Shown here: positions 33,428-47,665 of the stretch, one piece after another
Position numbering within the stretch: the stretch's first letter is position 1
How the letters are laid out: every line of letters begins with the position of its first letter
Source of the DNA: a virus
Strand: one strand, 5' to 3'
IMG/VR virus record: IMGVR_UViG_3300030333_004588
Span: 1-64,000 of that record
Length of the DNA stretch: 64,000 bases
The notes under the pieces: generated by a model
The model's database searches: none
What the model was told of the DNA's origin: nothing
What the model saw: the letters and a program-made list of their open reading frames with translations, nothing else
Made by a program: the position numbers and the translations under genes

Positions 33428-33868
33428 TCAAAAAAATCTTTCTATTTTTACAGGGTCACCAAACATTTCTTTTAAAAATTCTTGAAACTTATCTTCAGGA
33501 TAATTAGACCTACCAAGATTCATAAACCTTGTAGTGATTACAAAATTACCCTTGACATAACCACCCTTTGGGTCAGGCCATCTGTCAACTGATGGTGCTT
33601 TAATTGAATGTGGAACAAATATTTCATTCAAATCTATTTGATAATGAGGCATCCAATAATCACAACCCTTTTGTTTTTTAAATTGTTCCTCTAAGTCATC
33701 TCTTGTTATACCAACTTCAAGTTGTTTTTTGTATCTGTAAATCCTACCCTCTTTACTAACTGCCAACTCTCTTTTTAATTTTGAATTTAAATTTCCTCTT
33801 GTACTTCCTTGATTCTGTGATGACATATTTACATTTGACATCATTTTTTTAAATGGGTCTTTTGCCAT
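33428..33868 (-). CDS. Degenerate HNH-like endonuclease
   Basis: PSVDR...GYVKGN......N pattern. Confidence 0.5.
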   Translation of the reverse strand: MAKDPFKKMMSNVNMSSQNQGSTRGNLNSKLKRELAVSKEGRIYRYKKQLEVGITRDDLEEQFKKQKGCDYWMPHYQIDLNEIFVPHSIKAPSVDRWPDPKGGYVKGNFVITTRFMNLGRSNYPEDKFQEFLKEMFGDPVKIERFF

Positions 33869-36369
33869 TAGAAAAACCTCTCTATACTTTTTGTATTATC
33901 TACAACCTTTTCCCATTTCATTGCTTTATAAAACATACCAATCTTTTTACTCATTGCCTGTTCAAACATTCTTTCATGGTCAATATGTGTTTTAATTAAA
34001 TCTAAAATCTGTGGTGGGTCTTCGTAACCTTTATAACCTATAGTATCAAAACCAAACTCGTTATTCTTTAAATACACCCATTTAATCTTACTACCATTTG
34101 TAATCTTTTCATATTTCCTACCCTCATACCAATATTCTAAAAGTGAATTATAATTAATTGCAGATTTTACATGAACTGGTGTTCCCTTTTTATATCCACT
34201 AAATGCAGAGTCTTCTATTTTTACTTCATACTTACCAATACCCTTTACACCGATTGGATTTGCCATAACATCATAGTGAAGTGAATTCATGTTCCTTTTA
34301 AAAATACTAATTCTTTCATCAATTTTATCCTTTGGAACATCTGCCAAAATATCATCCAACACATTTTGTAATAACTCTTTCATTGCAACTGCAAAGTTAC
34401 TACGAACCGTATCCAATCCCTTTACATGTATTTTATTTACCTTACGACCTGCATCATTAATGATTCGTAACCCATATCTTTTCTTTGTAATAAATAATCC
34501 ACTCTTGGCAATCACCTCTTGTTTAATATCAAATACATGTTCATCAAGATTAAGAAACTTCTTTGCAAAATAATTATAACTTTGATTTAGATAATCTTGA
34601 ACCTCACCACATACTTCCAATATTCGTTGAGTCATCATTGCCTCAGATAATTTATCTTTCGGAAATCTTTTCTTTATCAATGGAATTGCAGAGGCGAAGA
34701 TTGAATCTGTATCAATGTATATAACATAATCATCGTTATCTCCAAGTTCTTTGTTATAAAAATGATTCGTTATCTTCTTACTGAACTTAATTAAGGCTTG
34801 ACCGGTAAGAGTCGTCGCCTCTGCGTTATCCAAGTCATAAAATCTAAATACTGATAGTCCTAACACACCATATAATGAATTTAAAATAATTTTCTGTATA
34901 TATTGTCGTCTGTCAAAGTAATCCTCTAATTCCTTGTCACCCTCTTCGTGATATTTCTTCACGAGTTTTCTCATCTCTACTCTTTCATTAAACCACTTAG
35001 TTAAAAGTGCAGGTATTAATCCTTGTTTATCTGTTCTATACATCACACCATTAGATGCAATACTAATTTTATTTGTTATTAAATAATTTTCTAATTCACC
35101 ATTTGTAAATTTACCAACTTCTTTTCCTTTATTATTATTCATCGTATATGTTTTTGTTAACCCTTTTTTCAAAAACTCTTCTGCATCCCAACCTTCAACT
35201 TTACCAAGTTTAGTTTCAGGACTAATATTCAATGAACGAATAACACTTGGATACATAGATGTGATATCTAAATCATAAACCCAATCGTGTTTACCTGCCT
35301 GTGGTGATTGAACATATGCACCTGCAAACTTATCATCAAGAAATTTCTTTGGTCTTGGTGGTTTATTTGGTGCAACAATACCAAGTTTTTTTAGATAAAC
35401 TAATATCGCACCCTCAAGATATCTTGAACTCATAAATACTTCCTCATAAGGAATATGTCCAAGATGTGCAATACCACGAGATATTTCTATTAGATTAAGT
35501 TTTTTATCTAATTCAACTAATATTTTTACATCTCGGATATTATAGTCAATAAATGTTTGTAAATCATTTTCATATAAATCATTAAGTGTTCCCTCATATG
35601 AAACCTTTTTCATACCAACTTCAACTTCACCAATGTAATCCAATCTATAACTTGATTGTTGGGAAAATGAAAACTTTCTATATAATGATAAGTAATCTAA
35701 ACAACTAACACCTGCAATTACATATCTCTTTTTAAATTCATTATAAAAGACTTGAGAGATAGGTGATAATAAATTTGCAACACTAACACCTAATACATTA
35801 ACTGCTCTATTATAAAGATATGGTATATCAAAATAGTCTGAATTCCAACCACTTAATATAGTTGGTTTTATTTCTAAATACTTTTGGAAGAACTTGTTCA
35901 ACATTTCATATTCAGTATCATATACCTCTACGATTTTATTATCTTTAGTATATGATTGAAGTCTCTTCTTTGCATCAAACACATATGTATAATATTTCTC
36001 TGTTAAAAAATCATAAAGTGCTATGGAAGTTATAACATTATTTGCCTTCATCACATCAGGAAAACCATCTGTAACCTCTACCTCTATATCAAAAAATATT
36101 TTTCTATGTCCCTCTGATACTTCATCTGAATCTGTATATTGGTCAACTAAAAATCTTGTTGTTGGTGGGACATCACTTTCGTGAAGTGTTGGGTCTTCCT
36201 TATCATAATTAAATACTTTCTTTACTCTATCACCATATAGTGAAACATGTTGACCACTTGAATTTTTTACATAGGCATACTTTTTATATGGGATAATTAA
36301 ATATCCTTTTTTATCATCCCAAAGATGAACTTTTTGTTTACGATTATCAAAATATATATTTTGGTACAT
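33868..36369 (-). CDS. Family B DNA polymerase (gp43-like)
   Basis: DIE exo I, DITSMYPS, KIILNSLYG, YIDTDS; C-terminal clamp-binding-like IERFF. Confidence 0.96.
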   Translation of the reverse strand: MYQNIYFDNRKQKVHLWDDKKGYLIIPYKKYAYVKNSSGQHVSLYGDRVKKVFNYDKEDPTLHESDVPPTTRFLVDQYTDSDEVSEGHRKIFFDIEVEVTDGFPDVMKANNVITSIALYDFLTEKYYTYVFDAKKRLQSYTKDNKIVEVYDTEYEMLNKFFQKYLEIKPTILSGWNSDYFDIPYLYNRAVNVLGVSVANLLSPISQVFYNEFKKRYVIAGVSCLDYLSLYRKFSFSQQSSYRLDYIGEVEVGMKKVSYEGTLNDLYENDLQTFIDYNIRDVKILVELDKKLNLIEISRGIAHLGHIPYEEVFMSSRYLEGAILVYLKKLGIVAPNKPPRPKKFLDDKFAGAYVQSPQAGKHDWVYDLDITSMYPSVIRSLNISPETKLGKVEGWDAEEFLKKGLTKTYTMNNNKGKEVGKFTNGELENYLITNKISIASNGVMYRTDKQGLIPALLTKWFNERVEMRKLVKKYHEEGDKELEDYFDRRQYIQKIILNSLYGVLGLSVFRFYDLDNAEATTLTGQALIKFSKKITNHFYNKELGDNDDYVIYIDTDSIFASAIPLIKKRFPKDKLSEAMMTQRILEVCGEVQDYLNQSYNYFAKKFLNLDEHVFDIKQEVIAKSGLFITKKRYGLRIINDAGRKVNKIHVKGLDTVRSNFAVAMKELLQNVLDDILADVPKDKIDERISIFKRNMNSLHYDVMANPIGVKGIGKYEVKIEDSAFSGYKKGTPVHVKSAINYNSLLEYWYEGRKYEKITNGSKIKWVYLKNNEFGFDTIGYKGYEDPPQILDLIKTHIDHERMFEQAMSKKIGMFYKAMKWEKVVDNTKSIERFF

Positions 36370-36401: not shown

Positions 36402-36431
36402 AATTTAATAATAAAACCATATACTTGTCAA
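36402..36431 (-). promoter_or_regulatory. Sigma70-type promoter of the DNA polymerase
   Basis: A tract-GC-TTGACA-N18-TAAATT. Confidence 0.65.
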
Positions 36432-36443
36432 GCTTTTTTTTTA

Positions 36444-36472
36444 ATAAAGTGGGCGGTATGTTTCAACCGCCC
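36444..36472 (-). terminator. Terminator after the TonB-dependent receptor
   Basis: GGGCGGT-TGAAACAT-ACCGCCC stem-loop followed by ACTTTATT. Confidence 0.65.
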
Positions 36473-36481
36473 AAATTATAG

Positions 36482-39223
36482 TTAGAAATTAATAGTCAAT
36501 CCAATATTTGCATATCGTGGTGTTCCTAAGAATACCTCTGCATTGTGAGCCAAGTGAAGTTTATCACCAAACCCATTGTATTTACTATTATCTACGGCAT
36601 CTTGTACGAATACTTCATCAAGTGCATTGAAGACATGTCCTGTTAAAGAAATGTCATATCCCTTGATTGGAAGTTTATATGATGCGTGTAAATCAAGTTT
36701 TGAGTAACCTGGGGCTTCCCAAACTTGTGCTCTGTCTGCAACTCCATCCTCAATCTCTCTTGCTGCTGGACTCCAATCAGAGTAGTTTTTATCATATGTT
36801 TTATACAACGCCTGTAATCTCAATCCTTTTACTGGTTTAAGAGTTAAACCTAAGATATAAGATGTTTGTGGCATATCACCTACATACAATCCATCAAGTG
36901 CATATCCATATTCGGTTGAAGTTTGTCCAATTACTTGTCCATCTTCATTATATTCCATTTCTTGGTAAGTACCATTGGCATCACCATCAAATGTCCATTT
37001 ACCAAATGATGCGATAAAATCAAGTTCTACCATATCGTGTGGATGAACTTTTGTTTCAAGTTCTACACCTGAGTGTTTTTGGTTTACACCTTTTAGGAAG
37101 ATAATATCAGTATCACCTGATGAACCTTGACCAGTCTCTACTGATTTAGTCAAGTTTCTATCTAACCAATCTGTGTTATATGCACTAACCCTAACACCAA
37201 GTTTATGTGCTTCGTAGTTTAAACCAACTTCATTTGCAATGAATTTTTCATTTGCAGGGTCGGTTGCTACGGTTCCATCATAGTAGATAACATTATCTAA
37301 TATAGGTGCCTTTTGGACATATCCACTATTAACGAATACTCCAAGATTATCACTTACATCATATAATGCACCACCTTTAACTTGATATGTTTGTATTGGG
37401 TCTGCAGTAATTACTTCATCCTCAATTGTAAAGTGGTCTTGATAAGAATACTGAATAGATGAAACTCCACCCATACCATATAGGTTTAATTTATCTGTAG
37501 TATAATTACCTTGTATGAAACCACCTAACCAATCTACGGTTGTTTCATTGTGATATGCAATGATATCACCTAAACGAACAACTTTACCATCAGGTGCGTT
37601 ATCATCGGCGAAATCTACATAGTAGTCTCCACCAAGTAAATCACGAACCTCACGAGCATGTTCAATTCCTGCTGTTCTCCAGTCTAAACCAACTTGTAGT
37701 TCTAAATTGTCATTTACATCATAGTTTAATTTAGAAATCAAACCATATGTGTTTTGACGATTAATAGAATTACGAAGTATACCTTTTGAACGAGCTTCAG
37801 TTTCAGAAAAATCAGCATCTATGTTATTAGAATTAACACTAATCGCTTCATTCCAATTCCATCCCCATGGTGAACTAGCCCACCAATTGTTTCCTTCAAC
37901 TGCTGGACTTCTGAAAGAAGAACCATAAGTTCCTGTTCCACCACCTGAACCACCACTCCAATAAAGAACTGAACTCAAACGAGTTTTATCATTTATTGTT
38001 AAAAAGTGATTTAAATTAACAAGTGGTTTATGAAAGAAGTTTTCTCTTTCGTTAAGGAAGTTAGGATTGTATCTATCGGTTGTTCTTGCACCATACATAT
38101 ACCAATATTGTTTACCTGTATATGATGGGTCAACAGGACCCCAGTTCTGATTGAAAAATCTACCAGCTTCATGTTCAAACTTATTACCCTCTGCGAAGGC
38201 ATCTGTATCGTATCCATCAATACTACCTGCCAACTCTTGAGAATAAGTTGCAATGTTCTGTTTGTATAGATTTTGTCCATGTCTTTGTGGAGCTCCGATG
38301 GCATATAATTCAAATCGTTGGTCTTCACTTACTGCATAACTACCACCAAAGTAGTATGCCCAAGCATCAGTCCAAGTTCCATCTATAATCCCATCACCAG
38401 TTTTACGAACAATCGTTCCACTCAAAGCCAACTTATCTCCAATGAGACCAGTATTATAGTTTAAGGTTGTTTTAAGAAAACCACCATCACCAGCTTCTTG
38501 TTTGAACTTTCCACCCTTTTCAAAAGATGTAGGGTCGGTTATGATATTCATGGTTCCACCAATTGATGGTGTGGCAAGATTTACAGCACTTAGTCCTCTT
38601 TGAACCTGTATAGATGCAGTTGCATCTCCTACTCCATCCCAATTAGACCAGTATACCCAACCATTTTCCATGTCGTTTTGTGGAACACCATTTATCATTA
38701 CTGCAACATTTCGTTGATTAAAACCACGAATGTTGATACGAGCATCACCCGCACCACCACCTTGTTGAGTTGCATATACACTTGGTGTAGTGTTAAGAAT
38801 CATTGGAATATCTTGTGAACCAAGTCTTACTTCCATTTCTTCTTTACTAACATTAGTGTAAGCAACGGGTGTAGTCTCAGATGCACGAGATGCTAACACC
38901 TCAACATCTGATAGAACAACTGCACCGACCTCTAATACAAAGTCAAGATTTGTTGTTCCTGTATCACCAATAACAACTGATTTAGTTATTGATGAATAGC
39001 CAATAAAAGAAGCAGTTACATCATATGTTCCTGTTGGAACTTCGTTGATTGTAAAAGCACCATCTGGATTAGTGGTTGCTCCTAAATCTGTTCCAACAAG
39101 GACAACATTTGCCCCTTCAAGTGGCATTGAGTTAGTACCCCATACGGTTCCTACTACATTTTGTGAAAACAATGTAGTAATCATCATAAGTGATACCATT
39201 AGATTACGATATTTCATAATCAT
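36482..39223 (-). CDS. TonB-dependent outer-membrane receptor with N-terminal carboxypeptidase-regulatory-like domain
   Basis: Signal peptide; PLEGANV...GTYDVTASFIGY; plug IRGF...INGVP...IQVQRG...GGTMNIIT; beta-barrel; terminal Phe. Confidence 0.92.
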   Translation of the reverse strand: MIMKYRNLMVSLMMITTLFSQNVVGTVWGTNSMPLEGANVVLVGTDLGATTNPDGAFTINEVPTGTYDVTASFIGYSSITKSVVIGDTGTTNLDFVLEVGAVVLSDVEVLASRASETTPVAYTNVSKEEMEVRLGSQDIPMILNTTPSVYATQQGGGAGDARINIRGFNQRNVAVMINGVPQNDMENGWVYWSNWDGVGDATASIQVQRGLSAVNLATPSIGGTMNIITDPTSFEKGGKFKQEAGDGGFLKTTLNYNTGLIGDKLALSGTIVRKTGDGIIDGTWTDAWAYYFGGSYAVSEDQRFELYAIGAPQRHGQNLYKQNIATYSQELAGSIDGYDTDAFAEGNKFEHEAGRFFNQNWGPVDPSYTGKQYWYMYGARTTDRYNPNFLNERENFFHKPLVNLNHFLTINDKTRLSSVLYWSGGSGGGTGTYGSSFRSPAVEGNNWWASSPWGWNWNEAISVNSNNIDADFSETEARSKGILRNSINRQNTYGLISKLNYDVNDNLELQVGLDWRTAGIEHAREVRDLLGGDYYVDFADDNAPDGKVVRLGDIIAYHNETTVDWLGGFIQGNYTTDKLNLYGMGGVSSIQYSYQDHFTIEDEVITADPIQTYQVKGGALYDVSDNLGVFVNSGYVQKAPILDNVIYYDGTVATDPANEKFIANEVGLNYEAHKLGVRVSAYNTDWLDRNLTKSVETGQGSSGDTDIIFLKGVNQKHSGVELETKVHPHDMVELDFIASFGKWTFDGDANGTYQEMEYNEDGQVIGQTSTEYGYALDGLYVGDMPQTSYILGLTLKPVKGLRLQALYKTYDKNYSDWSPAAREIEDGVADRAQVWEAPGYSKLDLHASYKLPIKGYDISLTGHVFNALDEVFVQDAVDNSKYNGFGDKLHLAHNAEVFLGTPRYANIGLTINF

Positions 39224-39247
39224 CTCCTTGTTTGTTTACTTGTGAAC

Positions 39248-39280
39248 GGCACATTTTTATTCTGGTGTGCCTTCTGCCAG
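39248..39280 (-). promoter_or_regulatory. Putative H-type pseudoknot in the nrdJ-TBDR spacer
   Basis: CUGG-CAGAA-GGCACA-CCAG-AAUAAAAA-UGUGCC: two interleaved stems and an A-rich loop 3. Confidence 0.45.
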
Positions 39281-39292
39281 GGTATGTGAAAT

Positions 39293-41305
39293 TTAATTTG
39301 CATACTCTTGGTCGTCATTATCTCCTGTCAAACTCGGTACCTCACAAGAGTCATTATTACAAAATTTATCTATCTCTGCCTCTTCATTTTTAATAACACC
39401 AAAAGATAATTTACCAAGTTTTTTGATTTGTTTCTTATAAACTTTTTCATCAATAGATTCATATGGCATTTGTGGATATGCTCCCCAATCATGTCTTGGT
39501 AGTAAACTGATACCTTTCAAATGATATTGGAAATAATTCAATACATTTGGTATTTCATGTCCCTCTTTCTCTGGGTCAAATGTTACTGTACAACTTACTT
39601 GGTTATCTGCCCAATGTCTTTGTAGGAAAGATGCTATACTAAATTGTTCCCATATAGAAAGTTCAGATGCAGTTCTAATTCCCTCACCAACATCAACTGG
39701 TATCTCAACCACTAATGTTGAATCTTCTGAACCGAAGGCAGGTTCAATTTTGTAACCTGCCTTCTTCAATGGTTCTACTAAATCGGAATTAATTGATAGT
39801 CTAATTCTTCTAATATAAAATCTTGATTCTGGATAGTGTAGTCCTGGTGTTGCCCCCGCTAACAATGATACGGTTCCACTTGGTTTTACTGATGTAGTCT
39901 TGATTGACTTTGGAATAGCAAACCAATCACTATATACTTTATCCCAATCTTGTATTGTGTCATAACCTGCTTCTAACCAATTTTGTAATTCATTTAATCC
40001 ACGATTTGTAATGAATTGTGCAACTCCACTTACAGAACATCCTATTCTTCTGTTTCTTAACATCACTCTATTAGTATCTGCCCAATGTGTTCTTCCAAGT
40101 GTTACGGTTTTTGCATATAAATATGCATATTTTAATGTTCTTTGATAGTCCTCTAATGAATCATGATTATCTGGAAATGTTTCTACTAAACAACATAATT
40201 CATAACTTTCTAATGTTTGTTCCAAACAAGGATTACCACCAGCCGCTCTATGGTCTTTATCATCTCCACCATTCTTCATTCTTGAATAATGTCTCATATT
40301 ATCTAACCATGCTAATCCTGGTTCACCATTGTCTACAATTCTCTTTGATACTTCTGTATAATCCATACCTAACTCTGCAAATATTGAATTGTTTGAAGTC
40401 CAACCATATTGGTCTCTATGTGGATTAACTTTATAATTCTTTAAATCTAAATATTCTTCTGAATCTGAATCACCAAATACAATCTCTGCAGTTCTTCTAA
40501 CATTACCTGCCACAACACACTTACCGATTAAATTCATAATATCTACGATGGTTGTGATTGTGATTGGATTACCACTATTCTTCTCTAATACTTTTCTAAT
40601 ATCTTCGTGAACTTCTTCTAATGGTTCTGGTCCTGAAGATAATCCACCAAAACCTTTGATTGGTTCTCCTGCACCTCTTATTTCTGAATAATCAAAGTTT
40701 ACTTCTGCCTGACCATGAAAATAACTTTCTAATAATAATCTCATGGATTCAACCCAACCCTCACGAGTGTCTGGTATTACAAACATAGTTCCTCGTGTTT
40801 TATCAACACCTTTAACTATAATTTCTCCTGCTCCTTTGGTATCAAATCCTACACCAACACCTAACATTGAGGCATCCATTAAAAAACAAAAAGGTTTTGA
40901 ATAATCTTCTTTAATTGTTTCTGTAGAAACGAATGCACAATTATTTAATGCAGCATACAATCCTTTTTCTTCGGTGATTGGTGTTCCCATAGCCCACAAA
41001 CCACGACCTGGTGGTAAGAACTTCATATTGAAAATTCTATCATACATATCTTGTGCTGACTTTTGTGCTTGCCAAGGATTCCAACCTAACTGATGTGATT
41101 CAATCCAATTCATTTGCATTGAGTAGGTTCCCTCTACAACTCTCTGAACGGTTTCCCACCATCTTTCGTTTTTACCATTGTCTTTAATACGAGAATATGT
41201 TCTCATATAAACTAATTCACCTAACCCATTAAAACCGAAAGGTGGTTTCTTTCTTTTGTATTTTGAAACAAAATTATCTGATAACTTGAACTTGTGTTTT
41301 CCCAT
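39293..41305 (-). CDS. nrdJ: Class II (adenosylcobalamin-dependent) ribonucleotide reductase
   Basis: PPGRGLW, NNCAF, NPCLEQ, KPSGTVS, C-terminal CxxxxC. Confidence 0.92.
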   Translation of the reverse strand: MGKHKFKLSDNFVSKYKRKKPPFGFNGLGELVYMRTYSRIKDNGKNERWWETVQRVVEGTYSMQMNWIESHQLGWNPWQAQKSAQDMYDRIFNMKFLPPGRGLWAMGTPITEEKGLYAALNNCAFVSTETIKEDYSKPFCFLMDASMLGVGVGFDTKGAGEIIVKGVDKTRGTMFVIPDTREGWVESMRLLLESYFHGQAEVNFDYSEIRGAGEPIKGFGGLSSGPEPLEEVHEDIRKVLEKNSGNPITITTIVDIMNLIGKCVVAGNVRRTAEIVFGDSDSEEYLDLKNYKVNPHRDQYGWTSNNSIFAELGMDYTEVSKRIVDNGEPGLAWLDNMRHYSRMKNGGDDKDHRAAGGNPCLEQTLESYELCCLVETFPDNHDSLEDYQRTLKYAYLYAKTVTLGRTHWADTNRVMLRNRRIGCSVSGVAQFITNRGLNELQNWLEAGYDTIQDWDKVYSDWFAIPKSIKTTSVKPSGTVSLLAGATPGLHYPESRFYIRRIRLSINSDLVEPLKKAGYKIEPAFGSEDSTLVVEIPVDVGEGIRTASELSIWEQFSIASFLQRHWADNQVSCTVTFDPEKEGHEIPNVLNYFQYHLKGISLLPRHDWGAYPQMPYESIDEKVYKKQIKKLGKLSFGVIKNEEAEIDKFCNNDSCEVPSLTGDNDDQEYAN

Positions 41306-42799: not shown

Positions 42800-43933
42800 T
42801 CATTTAGTTTTCGGAAAAACACGATTTATTTTATCATTATAGTTTTTTATTTCCATATAATTTCCACTTCGTGTTCCCATAAATTTTAAAATATTATTTA
42901 ATTCTATTTTTGTTTTTTCTGTTACATTATCCATATTTTTTTCAAAGGTATTTATAACCTTAAACTTATCTCTCTCTTGTAAATTCTGTATACATATACC
43001 ATCAGGTGCCCATGCATAATGAAATGATATATCATCAGTACTCTCAATAATACCTAAATCAAGGAATTGTTCAATTGATTCAAATATGTGATGTATGTTA
43101 TATGTGGATACGGTATATTGAATTCCATAGTGAATATCATTATCTTTTAGTTTTTGTATATTACTTACAAACTTTTTATGATTAAAACCAACTCTGATAT
43201 ACTCACCCAAATCGTAAAGTCCATCACAAGATACTGCAATGTATATGGTTCCCTTTTCTTTAATCTTATTCCAATACTTAAATAATGATTCTTCTTGATA
43301 TTTTAATGTAGATAAGTTTGTATTATAATGTAAATGTAATTTCAATTCTTTATCAGTAACAAATTTAAGTATATCCATGTGTTCAGGCATTATCAATGGT
43401 TCTCCACCTGCAAAATATATTTTATTAAGTTTATCTAAATGTCCTTTTAAATTTTGAATAAAATTATTTTTTACTTTTATTACTTTATTTGTATCTGGGG
43501 ATAATCCACCCATTAACATTTCAGGTTCATACCAAGATGACGAGAAATCATGACAACATGTTCTACATTTAAAATTACATTGATTAGAAAATCTAATATC
43601 TATATACTGAAACTCTAATGGAACTTCACCATCGGTAGTTTCTGGTATTTCAAATTCATTATTCTGTGGTTCTAAAAATCCTTGTCGTGCACTTATCTCA
43701 CCTCTATCTTCTGCAAGATAACAAATATCACATAACTTATTTCTTTCCCCATTTAACATATCAACACGAAGTTTTTTCATTTCTTCTGAGTTGAATACCT
43801 CATCTATTGTTTCATTATTTAAATTATGTGTGTATATAGTCTCTGCTATACAACAGGGTTTAACATGTCCTGATGGTTGTGCATATAAATGAACGAATGG
43901 TAAGGGACAAAATGTTTTACTTGTTTTACTCAC
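42800..43933 (-). CDS. Twitch-domain radical SAM protein
   Basis: N-terminal CPLPF...KPCC...CDIC, then CNFKCRTC and AGGEP. Confidence 0.85.
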   Translation of the reverse strand: MSKTSKTFCPLPFVHLYAQPSGHVKPCCIAETIYTHNLNNETIDEVFNSEEMKKLRVDMLNGERNKLCDICYLAEDRGEISARQGFLEPQNNEFEIPETTDGEVPLEFQYIDIRFSNQCNFKCRTCCHDFSSSWYEPEMLMGGLSPDTNKVIKVKNNFIQNLKGHLDKLNKIYFAGGEPLIMPEHMDILKFVTDKELKLHLHYNTNLSTLKYQEESLFKYWNKIKEKGTIYIAVSCDGLYDLGEYIRVGFNHKKFVSNIQKLKDNDIHYGIQYTVSTYNIHHIFESIEQFLDLGIIESTDDISFHYAWAPDGICIQNLQERDKFKVINTFEKNMDNVTEKTKIELNNILKFMGTRSGNYMEIKNYNDKINRVFPKTK

Positions 43934-46309: not shown

Positions 46310-47074
46310 TTATGAATTAAATAATTCATCAAAAGCTTCTGAAGTGTCTTTCACTTTGGAAGACTCTAAATCAGCACTTGTTACGGTATCTTTTTCTTCA
46401 TTATCATTTGATTCTGTATCGTCTTCTTCTGATGGATTTAACCATTCATTCAATACACCTGATAAATCATCATAAGATAACTCTTGATAAATTTCACGAA
46501 TGTCTTGTTGTTCTTTGACCTTTTCCAAAATTTCAGGTTCATCTGAAATTGGTGTTTGATTAGGTTTTACTCTAATCTTTGTTGTAGGGAAACTCGCTCC
46601 AGTTTCCTCTGCAGATATGAACTCAACAACAACATCACGACCATTAACTGGGTCTGTTATGTCACCATAATCAGGGTCAGCAATTACTGAAAGAAGTTCT
46701 TGGTATACGGTTTTACCGAATCCCCAAAACTTTACTCCTGCCTTTTCCTCACCTCTAACGATGACTGGTGCAAAAGTTCTCATTTTTGCCTCTAATTTAC
46801 GAGCCAATTGATAATCTTCTTTATTACCACTTCCACGAAGTTTCTGTGCAAACTCTTCAATCGGGTCTGGTCTACCAAAGGATATTGGTGAAAGATATGA
46901 ACGATTGTTAAGATTGTAGTGGAAAAATAACTCAATAAAAGGATTGTCTTTATTGAATGAATAAGGTACGATTCTTATTTGAGTTTTACCTGGTTGTGGT
47001 TTCCAAAGACTTGATGTTCTGTTGTTTGTAGTTTGAAGTTGTGATAACCTCTTACGAATAGCATTTAAGTCCAT
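46310..47074 (-). CDS. Single-stranded DNA-binding protein (gp32-like)
   Basis: LWKP...IRIVP, FGKTVY, DPVNGRD; acidic tail ending FDELF. Confidence 0.85.
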   Translation of the reverse strand: MDLNAIRKRLSQLQTTNNRTSSLWKPQPGKTQIRIVPYSFNKDNPFIELFFHYNLNNRSYLSPISFGRPDPIEEFAQKLRGSGNKEDYQLARKLEAKMRTFAPVIVRGEEKAGVKFWGFGKTVYQELLSVIADPDYGDITDPVNGRDVVVEFISAEETGASFPTTKIRVKPNQTPISDEPEILEKVKEQQDIREIYQELSYDDLSGVLNEWLNPSEEDDTESNDNEEKDTVTSADLESSKVKDTSEAFDELFNS

Positions 47075-47278: not shown

Positions 47279-47665
47279 GGGAATGTGGGATTAACGATTA
47301 CCCACAACTTAAAGCTTGGATTTTTTCTACCTTGAACCTAACACCCATCAGTTACGATGATTCTCCTCAGGATGGTTAATCCCATTGAAGTGGTTACAAC
47401 ACCTGTGTCATTACTTTATCTCTCCAAGTTTAGATTGATTCAGTCATAAAGTGGGATTTCAGTATTACCCTTACCCACAACAAGGTCAATAGAATCGTTT
47501 CTATTGTTTTTTCTTCAAGTACATTAGATGATTGATGTCTCAACTACTCCACCATTCGGCCTTGTAGGTTCACCACGAACTCATCTTGGATTACCTTATG
47601 GGCTTCTAAAGGATACCCATTATTCGGTCAATTCCATACAGAGTTAATTACTCTCTGTACTTTCC
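47279..47665 (-). ncRNA. Large structured non-coding RNA (family not identified)
   Basis: No ORF in the track, GC-richer than its flanks, 10 or more local and long-range helices; G-U pairs favour the minus strand. Confidence 0.7.

What the first reader, a model, noticed from the sequence alone, without database searches (positions are those of the whole stretch)
36482..41305. B12-dependent RNR directly followed by a full-length TonB-dependent receptor
Seen: nrdJ and an intact 913-aa TBDR are 69 bp apart inside the replication core, with a terminator after the TBDR. Known: class II RNR needs adenosylcobalamin, which Gram-negative bacteria import via TBDRs. Inference: the phage supplies its own outer-membrane importer for cobalamin (or iron for its many Fe enzymes). 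Alternatively it acts as a receptor decoy or exclusion protein.
Basis: partly seen in the sequence, partly recalled or inferred. Interest (0 to 1): 0.75.

Follow-up and report, generated by a model that had tools for sequence, protein, structure and literature searches.

The report
Phage-borne host outer-membrane nutrient importer
A widespread group of marine phages, probably infecting the uncultured SAR406 (Marinimicrobia) bacteria, carries an intact copy of one of the host's outer-membrane TonB-dependent importers behind its own small RNA pseudoknot. It is not the host's vitamin B12 importer, so its position next to the B12-dependent reductase looks positional, not functional.

Summary
nrdJ (39293-41305, -) and an intact TonB-dependent transporter (36482-39223, -) lie 69 nt apart. 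A terminator-like hairpin and the PolB gene follow.

The cobalamin reading is not supported:
- The gene gives no BtuB-family match.
- No cobalamin riboswitch lies in the window or in front of the eight host orthologues scanned.
- In three of five Marinimicrobia genomes searched, that riboswitch sits in front of a different, BtuB-like receptor of about 685 aa.

What the gene is:
- At least 328 IMG/VR contigs carry it. The 80 fetched are 72-86% identical to the window's copy.
- The phage copies form one clade nested inside Marinimicrobia receptors.
- dN/dS is about 0.17, and the plug is about 85% identical between phage and host copies.

Linkage to nrdJ is common but breakable. Four loci hold the receptor in another phage context. 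Three relatives keep nrdJ without the receptor, two of them with a deletion remnant.

A 33-nt H-type pseudoknot with compensatory changes precedes every phage copy, is absent from hosts and matches no Rfam family.

Best reading: an auxiliary uptake gene with the host orthologue's substrate, which is unknown. Receptor replacement or exclusion is not excluded.

The scan reached the same reading earlier on other genomes (e1-5747540, e1-4702854, e1-5342264).

The parts
39293..41305 (-). nrdJ: monomeric adenosylcobalamin-dependent ribonucleoside-triphosphate reductase (class II RNR, RTPR type), 670 aa
   Evidence: TIGR02505 scores 359.6 bits, above the 340 cut-off. Pfam RNR_Alpha and RNR-II_ins_dom match; phrog_367 E 8.7e-136.
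39282..39290 (-). TTCACATAC motif just upstream of the pseudoknot. It is conserved in most phage leaders and similar words occur upstream of some host orthologues. Possibly a promoter-proximal element carried over from the host.
   Evidence: Only exact copy in the window. Seen in the leader alignment and upstream of L085, L086, L121 and L110. Its function is inferred.
39248..39280 (-). 33-nt H-type RNA pseudoknot in the receptor's 5' leader. Stem 1 pairs 39280-39277 with 39265-39262. Stem 2 pairs 39271-39266 with 39253-39248. Loop 3 is A-rich.
   Evidence: Alignment A2 has 58 distinct leaders. 97.6% of cells pair, 6 of 11 pairs show changes on both sides, 0 of 500 shuffles reach this, and slid controls give 18-51% paired. 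The core motif occurs once per viral locus, always before the receptor, and never in the host loci L083-L161. It is unique in the window and has no Rfam match at E<=10.
39224..39229 (-). Shine-Dalgarno AAGGAG, 18 nt of A-rich spacer after the pseudoknot
   Evidence: Sequence read. GGAG is invariant in alignment A2.
36482..39223 (-). TonB-dependent outer-membrane transporter gene of host origin. The ORF is 913 aa; the probable start is the ATG at 39217, giving 911 aa. Parts: signal peptide residues 1-21, CarboxypepD_reg N-terminal extension 23-108, TonB-box-like LSDVEVLA 103-110, plug to about 262, beta-barrel about 263-913, terminal Phe.
   Evidence: Purifying selection. Phylogeny.
36450..36473 (-). 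Terminator-like hairpin after the receptor gene
   Evidence: 8-bp stem with 6 G-C pairs and an 8-nt loop, followed by CTTTATT and an A run. The T run is weak, so function is inferred.
36402..36431 (-). Sigma-70-like promoter-like site (TTGACA-18-TAAATT) ahead of PolB
   Evidence: 10 of 12 matches. This is a consensus match only.
33868..36369 (-). Family B DNA polymerase (T4 gp43-like), the downstream neighbour
   Evidence: PF00136 E 1.4e-40 and PF03104 E 1.4e-19. tblastn gives 44.6% to Microcystis phage Mel-JY01 and 31-35% to T4-like cyanophages and KVP40.

Best explanation
The gene is an auxiliary uptake gene. An ancestor of this marine phage group, which has a T4-type replication module, captured once a chromosomal TonB-dependent transporter of its Marinimicrobia (SAR406) host. 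The group has kept the gene working since. The phage transcribes it with or just after the replication genes. Its leader carries a phage-specific pseudoknot about 18 nt before the ribosome-binding site, which probably sets translation or mRNA stability. The host Sec and BAM machineries export the protein and insert it in the outer membrane, and the host TonB-ExbBD complex energises it. It then raises uptake of the same substrate that the host orthologue imports. That substrate is unknown, but it is not cobalamin taken up through the host's dedicated route. Shown here: the intact fold, host origin, single clade, purifying selection, the covarying leader, and the absence of BtuB features. Inferred: localisation, energisation, benefit to the phage, and the role of the leader.
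For: Intact transporter: signal peptide, conserved TonB-box-like VEV.A motif, Plug domain, barrel, terminal Phe. Breadth: 328 IMG/VR contigs encode relatives, and the best 80 are full length at 72-86% identity. Thousands of metagenome proteins match. Origin: the nearest cellular homologues are almost all Marinimicrobia MAGs and SAGs at 50-68% identity. The phage copies form one clade (SH-like 100 in FastTree, SH-aLRT 100 in IQ-TREE) nested among them. Selection: dN/dS is about 0.17 for close pairs. Same function as the host protein is likely: plug identity is 0.84-0.89 within and between groups, there are almost no fixed phage-versus-host differences, and loops are not accelerated. Regulation of its own: the pseudoknot leader travels with the gene into another phage context (L055, L060, L063, L076) and across a 1.1-kb insertion (L182, L190, L225). 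Contigs identical to the gene occur in four marine metatranscriptome runs of four studies. This is only a hint of transcription.
Against: No substrate can be named. Host neighbourhoods are housekeeping genes (dnaG, cvpA, yqeY, SRAP) and give no clue. No Ton-system genes were found in the 74-kb record, so the host system must be used, which is untested. The host assignment rests on this one gene. The phage PolB was found at only 33-36% identity in 3 of 401 Marinimicrobia genomes. Outer-membrane insertion late in a lytic cycle may be too slow to pay off. The RNA evidence comes from contigs and cannot prove transcription.
Confidence: 0.55

Rival explanations
1. Receptor replacement or superinfection exclusion. 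The host orthologue is the phage's own adsorption receptor. The phage copy replaces or dilutes it with a version that the phage cannot bind. This blocks superinfection and spares progeny from adsorbing to debris, while transport continues.
For: TonB-dependent transporters are classic phage receptors, and solved complexes such as FhuA-pb5 and FhuA-Llp appear among the fold matches. Loop L3 (residues 435-480) is the most diverged region between phage and host (identity 0.34) and is about 18 residues shorter in the phage copies. Relative to barrel strands, host loops vary more than phage loops: 1.3 times against about 1.0. Receptor alleles do not track the phage backbone. L077 and L081 have close flanking genes but a receptor from the other allele clade.
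Against: There is no general acceleration and there are almost no fixed differences in the extracellular loops. No phage is known to me that encodes a copy of its own receptor (own knowledge). The receptor of this phage is unknown.
Confidence: 0.2
2. Cobalamin importer that feeds the adjacent B12-dependent NrdJ.
For: The receptor lies next to nrdJ in 58 of 64 loci found with nrdJ that have room downstream, and in nearly all 80 loci found with the receptor. NrdJ needs adenosylcobalamin (established knowledge). Some JGI records name homologues 'outer membrane cobalamin receptor' by automatic annotation.
Against: There is no match to TIGR01779 or NF007926 (BtuB). E. coli BtuB is only rank 44 among fold matches. 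No cobalamin riboswitch lies in the window or in eight host loci. In three of five host genomes the riboswitch precedes a different 682-688-aa receptor whose best NCBIfam match is TonB-B12. That receptor is unrelated to this protein beyond the N-terminus (E 0.012). Host orthologues are never next to nrdJ. The receptor is kept away from nrdJ in four loci. nrdJ is kept without the receptor in L233, L227 and L235. The nrdJ-PolB junction behaves as an insertion hotspot.
Confidence: 0.07
3. Importer of another named micronutrient: iron-siderophore or haem for the phage's Fe-S and 2OG-Fe enzymes, or thiamine. An Atlas neighbour cluster is named 'Thiamin-regulated outer membrane receptor Omr1'.
For: The best fold matches are mostly siderophore and metal transporters. 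There is a plug-only match to the TonB haemoglobin/transferrin family.
Against: The fold matches reflect what has been solved, at 12-15% identity. The NCBIfam match covers only the plug and is far below the cut-off (45 against 324 bits). No TPP riboswitch was found in the eight host loci scanned. No iron or thiamine genes appear among the conserved host neighbours that were annotated. The Atlas name is automatic.
Confidence: 0.12
4. Functionless passenger picked up by chance and decaying.
For: It has been lost in a few sublineages (L233, L227, L235).
Against: All 80 fetched copies matched over most of their length and those extracted read through without a stop. dN/dS is about 0.17. The leader is conserved and covaries. 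The gene is retained across backbones whose PolB has diverged to 54-62% identity.
Confidence: 0.02

Closest known systems
The orthologous chromosomal TonB-dependent transporter of Marinimicrobia / Neomarinimicrobiota (SAR406), e.g. L086, L106, L099
   Same: Same architecture: CarboxypepD_reg, Plug, barrel. 50-68% identity over the full length. The plug is about 85% identical. The phage clade nests inside this family.
   Different: The host genes sit in a conserved housekeeping neighbourhood (dnaG, cvpA, yqeY, SRAP). They have no pseudoknot leader and have longer L3 loops. Their substrate is also unknown.
SusC-like TonB-dependent receptor genes reported as auxiliary metabolic genes in marine megaphages (Mar_Mega_1, LR745206; PMC9723777)
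   Same: A phage-encoded TonB-dependent receptor in marine phages, read as an uptake-boosting auxiliary gene. tblastn finds LR745206 and related records.
   Different: Only the plug region matches, at 27-31% identity over 15-22% of the query. The phage lineage and presumed host differ. No conserved RNA leader or lineage-wide synteny was described there.
E. coli BtuB and the riboswitch-controlled BtuB-like receptors of the host phylum
   Same: Same superfamily fold.
   Different: No family-level sequence match and no riboswitch. The host's own riboswitch-linked receptor is a separate gene of about 685 aa.
T4 gene 32 translational operator (5' pseudoknot followed by an unstructured A/U-rich stretch that reaches the ribosome-binding site); from my own knowledge, not tested
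   Same: Layout: a compact H-type pseudoknot, then an A-rich spacer, then the Shine-Dalgarno site, in a phage with a T4-type replication module.
   Different: No sequence relation was shown. The element precedes a membrane-protein gene, not the ssDNA-binding protein gene. This phage's own SSB gene is preceded by a manA RNA instead. Binding by any protein or ligand is untested.

Membership tests
TonB-dependent transporter superfamily | N-terminal signal peptide and C-terminal aromatic residue of an outer-membrane beta-barrel | tested here: met
   The protein begins with a hydrophobic leader ending ...TTLFSQ and ends ...INF. This was read from the sequence; no predictor was run.
TonB-dependent transporter superfamily | Plug domain filling the barrel | tested here: met
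   PF07715 scores 55.2 bits, above the 23.9 cut-off, over residues 116-224. It is modelled with pLDDT about 90.
TonB-dependent transporter superfamily | 22-stranded beta-barrel | tested here: met
   In the AlphaFold2 model my reading of the strand list gives 22 barrel strands. Foldseek E 2e-41 to PqqU, YncD, FhuA and FecA with target TM 0.76-0.81. The Pfam barrel model PF00593 itself gave no match even at E<=10.
TonB-dependent transporter superfamily | TonB box ahead of the plug | tested here: inconclusive
   The LSDVEVLA stretch (residues 103-110) lies in a flexible segment (pLDDT below 50), and VEV.A is in the family consensus. Interaction with TonB cannot be tested here.
SusC/RagA family (TIGR04056) | Score above the family cut-off, and an adjacent SusD-like lipoprotein gene | tested here: not met
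   54.3 bits against a 368 cut-off, N-terminal part only. No SusD-like gene is next to it: the terminator-like hairpin and PolB follow in the phage. No SusD-like family was found among the host neighbours annotated.
BtuB cobalamin receptor (TIGR01779 / NF007926) | Family-level sequence match | tested here: not met
   Neither model is listed at E<=0.01. E. coli BtuB 1nqe is rank 44 by fold.
BtuB cobalamin receptor (TIGR01779 / NF007926) | Cobalamin riboswitch control, typical of btuB genes | tested here: not met
   No RF00174 match in the window or in eight host loci. In three host genomes RF00174 precedes another receptor.
BtuB cobalamin receptor (TIGR01779 / NF007926) | Binds and transports cobalamin | not testable with these tools
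   Needs a binding or complementation assay.
Thiamin-regulated receptor 'Omr1' (automatic Atlas cluster name) | TPP riboswitch upstream | tested here: not met
   No RF00059 match in the window or the eight host loci at gathering threshold.
Class II RNR, monomeric RTPR type (for nrdJ) | Equivalog model above its cut-off | tested here: met
   TIGR02505 scores 359.6 bits against 340.05.
Known small pseudoknot riboswitches in Rfam (preQ1, SAM-II/V, guanidine-III and others) | Match to a curated covariance model | tested here: not met
   cmscan of 39150-39400 at E<=10 gave only chance snoRNA hits.

The most novel reading that the evidence does not exclude
The 33-nt pseudoknot is a new regulatory RNA that the phage lineage built in front of a stolen host transporter. 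It could be a minimal riboswitch sensing the transporter's substrate, or an operator for a phage RNA-binding protein in the manner of the T4 gene 32 operator. Either would tie outer-membrane remodelling to the state of infection. Together with allele swapping between backbones, the transporter would then be a regulated host-range or exclusion device and not a simple nutrient booster.
Probability: 0.15. Interest if true: 0.8.

Novelty: new variant of a known kind. Interest (0 to 1): 0.55.

Why it matters
[quoted passage not shown] A host-derived gene that nests cleanly inside the host phylum's own gene family gives a testable host assignment for a very common phage group.

The case also shows a phage keeping a 900-aa outer-membrane importer for a long evolutionary time and giving it its own RNA leader. 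This suggests that uptake across the outer membrane, or the make-up of the cell surface, limits phage production in these oligotrophs.

It is a caution for guilt-by-association as well. A near-universal adjacency to a B12 enzyme is here explained by an insertion hotspot and shared descent, not by shared function.

Tried and rejected
- **Cobalamin importer:** rejected as the main reading. See the rival explanation.
- **SusC/RagA membership:** rejected.
- **Thiamine lead from an automatic Atlas name:** no TPP riboswitch in the eight host loci.
- **Earlier scan note suggesting nucleotide-like phosphorus compounds from neighbourhoods (e1-5747540):** my clustering of flanking genes in 79 host loci found mostly housekeeping genes. 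A His_Phos_1 phosphatase occurs in only 13 loci, which is too weak to adopt.
- **Sequence search of PDB:** one partial match (9gbc_A, N-terminal part and plug only). No help on substrate.
- **Phage-encoded TonB or ExbB:** none in the 74-kb record. The record is only about 40% complete.
- **RTPR-type nrdJ in five host genomes:** not found with this query.
- **Independent host evidence:** a search for the phage PolB in 401 Marinimicrobia genomes gave only 33-36% matches in three genomes. No support and no contradiction.
- **RNR or PolB in the four records with the alternative receptor context:** none found, but these are fragments, 5-27% complete.
- **TTCACATAC as a general phage promoter:** rejected, because it is unique in the window.
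- **Metatranscriptome contigs:** they cover the receptor and hardly any of nrdJ. Contigs cannot rank genes or prove transcription, so this is used only as a weak hint.
- **Literature:** searches for this lineage or its receptor found only the megaphage report.


Full report
**Observation**

The gap between them is 69 nt.

- The upstream gene is a monomeric adenosylcobalamin ribonucleoside-triphosphate reductase. TIGR02505 scores 359.6 bits against a cut-off of 340.
- The downstream protein has a signal peptide, a CarboxypepD_reg domain, a Plug domain and a terminal Phe.
- With a 64-sequence alignment AlphaFold2 gives pLDDT 88 and pTM 0.82.
- Foldseek places the model on solved TonB-dependent transporters (PqqU, YncD, FhuA, FecA) with target TM about 0.8.
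- A hairpin at 36450-36473 and a promoter-like site precede PolB.
- AAGGAG touches the first ATG, so the second ATG at 39217 is the likelier start, giving 911 aa as in the homologues.

The record is an IMG/VR virus fragment of 74 kb, about 40% complete. It has a T4-type replication module: PolB, clamp, UvsX, DnaB-like helicase, endonuclease VII.

**How common it is, and where it came from**

- 328 IMG/VR contigs encode relatives, and the best 80 are full length at 72-86% identity.
- The large protein collections hold thousands more.
- In one genome per prokaryote species, the nearest cellular homologues are almost all Marinimicrobia/Neomarinimicrobiota (SAR406) MAGs and single-cell genomes, at 50-68% identity. 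Several lie on contigs of 100-570 kb.
- The one 85% hit, in a 'Flavobacteriales' MAG, is a mis-binned phage contig with the same nrdJ-receptor-PolB order.

In a FastTree tree of 177 rows, and in an IQ-TREE tree of 66 rows, the phage copies form one clade with support 100. This clade nests among the Marinimicrobia proteins. This points to one capture from that phylum, which makes it the probable host. The assignment rests on this gene alone, because a search for the phage PolB in 401 genomes of the phylum gave only distant hits.

**Is it kept working?**

- Those copies extracted from the 80 fetched loci read through without a stop.
- dN/dS against close relatives is about 0.17.
- The plug is 0.84-0.89 identical within phages, within hosts and between them.
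- There are almost no fixed phage-versus-host differences.
- The extracellular loops are not accelerated. Only loop L3 is clearly diverged and is about 18 residues shorter in the phage.

The simplest reading is that the phage protein does what the host protein does.

**Is it a cobalamin importer?**

The evidence says no.

- No BtuB model matches, and BtuB is an ordinary fold match at rank 44.
- No cobalamin riboswitch lies in the window or in eight host loci that hold the orthologue.
- Three of five host genomes do have the riboswitch. In each it sits directly in front of another receptor of 682-688 aa whose best NCBIfam match is TonB-B12.
- That receptor aligns with the phage protein only weakly, over the N-terminal part (E 0.012).

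So the host has a separate, dedicated candidate B12 route, and the phage did not take that gene. Host orthologues are never next to an nrdJ. No RTPR-type nrdJ was found in five host genomes.

**The linkage to nrdJ**

The order nrdJ-receptor-PolB holds in nearly all 80 loci found with the receptor. It also holds in 58 of the 64 loci found with nrdJ that have room downstream. This is one inherited arrangement, not many independent ones, and it breaks in both directions.

- L055, L060, L063 and L076 carry the receptor among other auxiliary genes: Hsp20, thymidylate kinase, peptide deformylase, QueE, QueC, GTP cyclohydrolase. No window gene is nearby.
- L233 has nrdJ followed directly by the PolB promoter.
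- L227 and L235 keep the leader and about the first 25 codons of the receptor, then another 483-aa gene. This is a deletion remnant.
- L182, L190 and L225 have a 1.1-kb insertion between nrdJ and the receptor.

The nrdJ-PolB junction is therefore a place where accessory DNA comes and goes. Receptor alleles also fail to track the backbone: L077 and L081 have close flanking genes but a receptor from the other allele clade. At depth, the receptor and nrdJ are less diverged than PolB and DnaB. Both patterns suggest exchange by recombination.

**The leader**

Every phage copy is preceded by a 33-nt element (39280-39248 on the minus strand) that folds as an H-type pseudoknot.

- In 58 distinct leaders, 97.6% of cells pair and 6 of 11 pairs show changes on both sides.
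- None of 500 shuffles reaches these values, and slid controls drop to 18-51% paired.
- Its core motif occurs once per viral locus, always before the receptor, including the loci without an adjacent nrdJ.
- It occurs in none of the host loci L083-L161 and once in the window.
- No Rfam family matches.

An A-rich spacer of about 18-35 nt separates the element from an invariant GGAG. A TTCACATAC word just upstream is unique in the window, and similar words recur upstream of some host orthologues. It may be a promoter-proximal piece carried over with the gene.

The layout recalls the T4 gene 32 operator (my own knowledge). A role in translation or mRNA stability is an inference.

**Substrate**

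The substrate is unknown.

- Conserved host neighbours are dnaG, cvpA, yqeY, a methylase, SRAP, DUF3228 and an unnamed 555-aa protein.
- An automatic Atlas name, 'thiamin-regulated Omr1', fails the riboswitch test in the loci scanned.
- An earlier scan note proposed nucleotide-like phosphorus compounds. I could not support that: a phosphatase neighbour occurs in only 13 loci.

**Expression**

Contigs identical to the receptor gene occur in four marine metatranscriptome runs of four studies, while nrdJ is almost uncovered. The tool warns that contigs cannot rank genes and that RNA libraries can hold DNA. I take this only as consistent with transcription.

**Verdict**

- The general idea that the phage carries its own outer-membrane importer is supported.
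- The cobalamin link is not supported.
- The exclusion or decoy alternative stays open at about one in five.

In the literature I could search, the nearest report is a SusC-like gene noted in marine megaphages (PMC9723777). It matches only over the plug. I found no description of this lineage, its host link or its leader.

The scan's own earlier follow-ups on other genomes reached the same reading. I reached the host, clade and not-BtuB conclusions before reading those notes. I had seen one leader hairpin in the sequence, took the pseudoknot reading from those notes, and then tested it.

Noticed in passing
window 47280-47479 (-): A manA RNA (RF01745) matches at 60.9 bits, above the 55.2 gathering score. 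It lies just upstream of the gene at 46310-47074, which an earlier first-reader note calls the ssDNA-binding protein gene. That note called the region an 'ornate non-coding RNA'.
   Followed up: partly
L227 8010-8230, also L235; L233 6710-6793; L182, L190, L225: The nrdJ-PolB junction is a hotspot. L227 and L235 keep the pseudoknot leader and about 25 codons of the receptor, followed by an unrelated 483-aa gene with no Pfam match. L233 is an empty site. Three loci have a 1.1-kb insertion between nrdJ and the receptor.
   Followed up: partly
L083 (4.3-kb contig of a Neomarinimicrobiota MAG): This receptor is 73% identical to the window's and nests inside the viral clade (SH-aLRT 99-100). It has no pseudoknot leader and its locus GC is 38%. 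A DegT aminotransferase gene lies upstream and a second receptor paralogue follows in tandem. It could be a phage-to-host return transfer, a phage fragment or a binning error.
   Followed up: partly
L082 (NZWA01000089.1, 'Flavobacteriales' MAG): This 44-kb contig carries the full nrdJ-receptor-PolB-endonuclease VII-clamp block at 85-97% identity. It is a phage contig binned into a bacterial MAG, which explains the 'Flavobacteriales' name on a public protein record.
   Followed up: yes
L165, L166, L167 (host genomes G001, G002, G004): The host cobalamin riboswitch precedes a 682-688-aa BtuB-like receptor. In L166 the next gene (432 aa) ends in a T9SS sorting domain. It might be a surface B12-binding partner.
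   Followed up: no
L116 8073-9740 (-) and 31 other host loci: An unnamed protein of about 555 aa with no Pfam match lies convergent, directly downstream of the host receptor orthologue in 32 loci. It has a glycine-rich C-terminal part that ends in Phe.
   Followed up: no
L053, L066, L068, L069: These relatives keep nrdJ (79-81%) and the receptor (73%), but their PolB is only 26-27% identical and lies 2.4 kb further downstream. The polymerase seems to have been replaced in this sublineage.
   Followed up: no
window 42800-43933 (-): A radical SAM / SPASM protein gene sits between the exonuclease and DnaB-like helicase genes. It is present only in the closest relatives (L002, L004, L005, L008, L048).
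   Followed up: no
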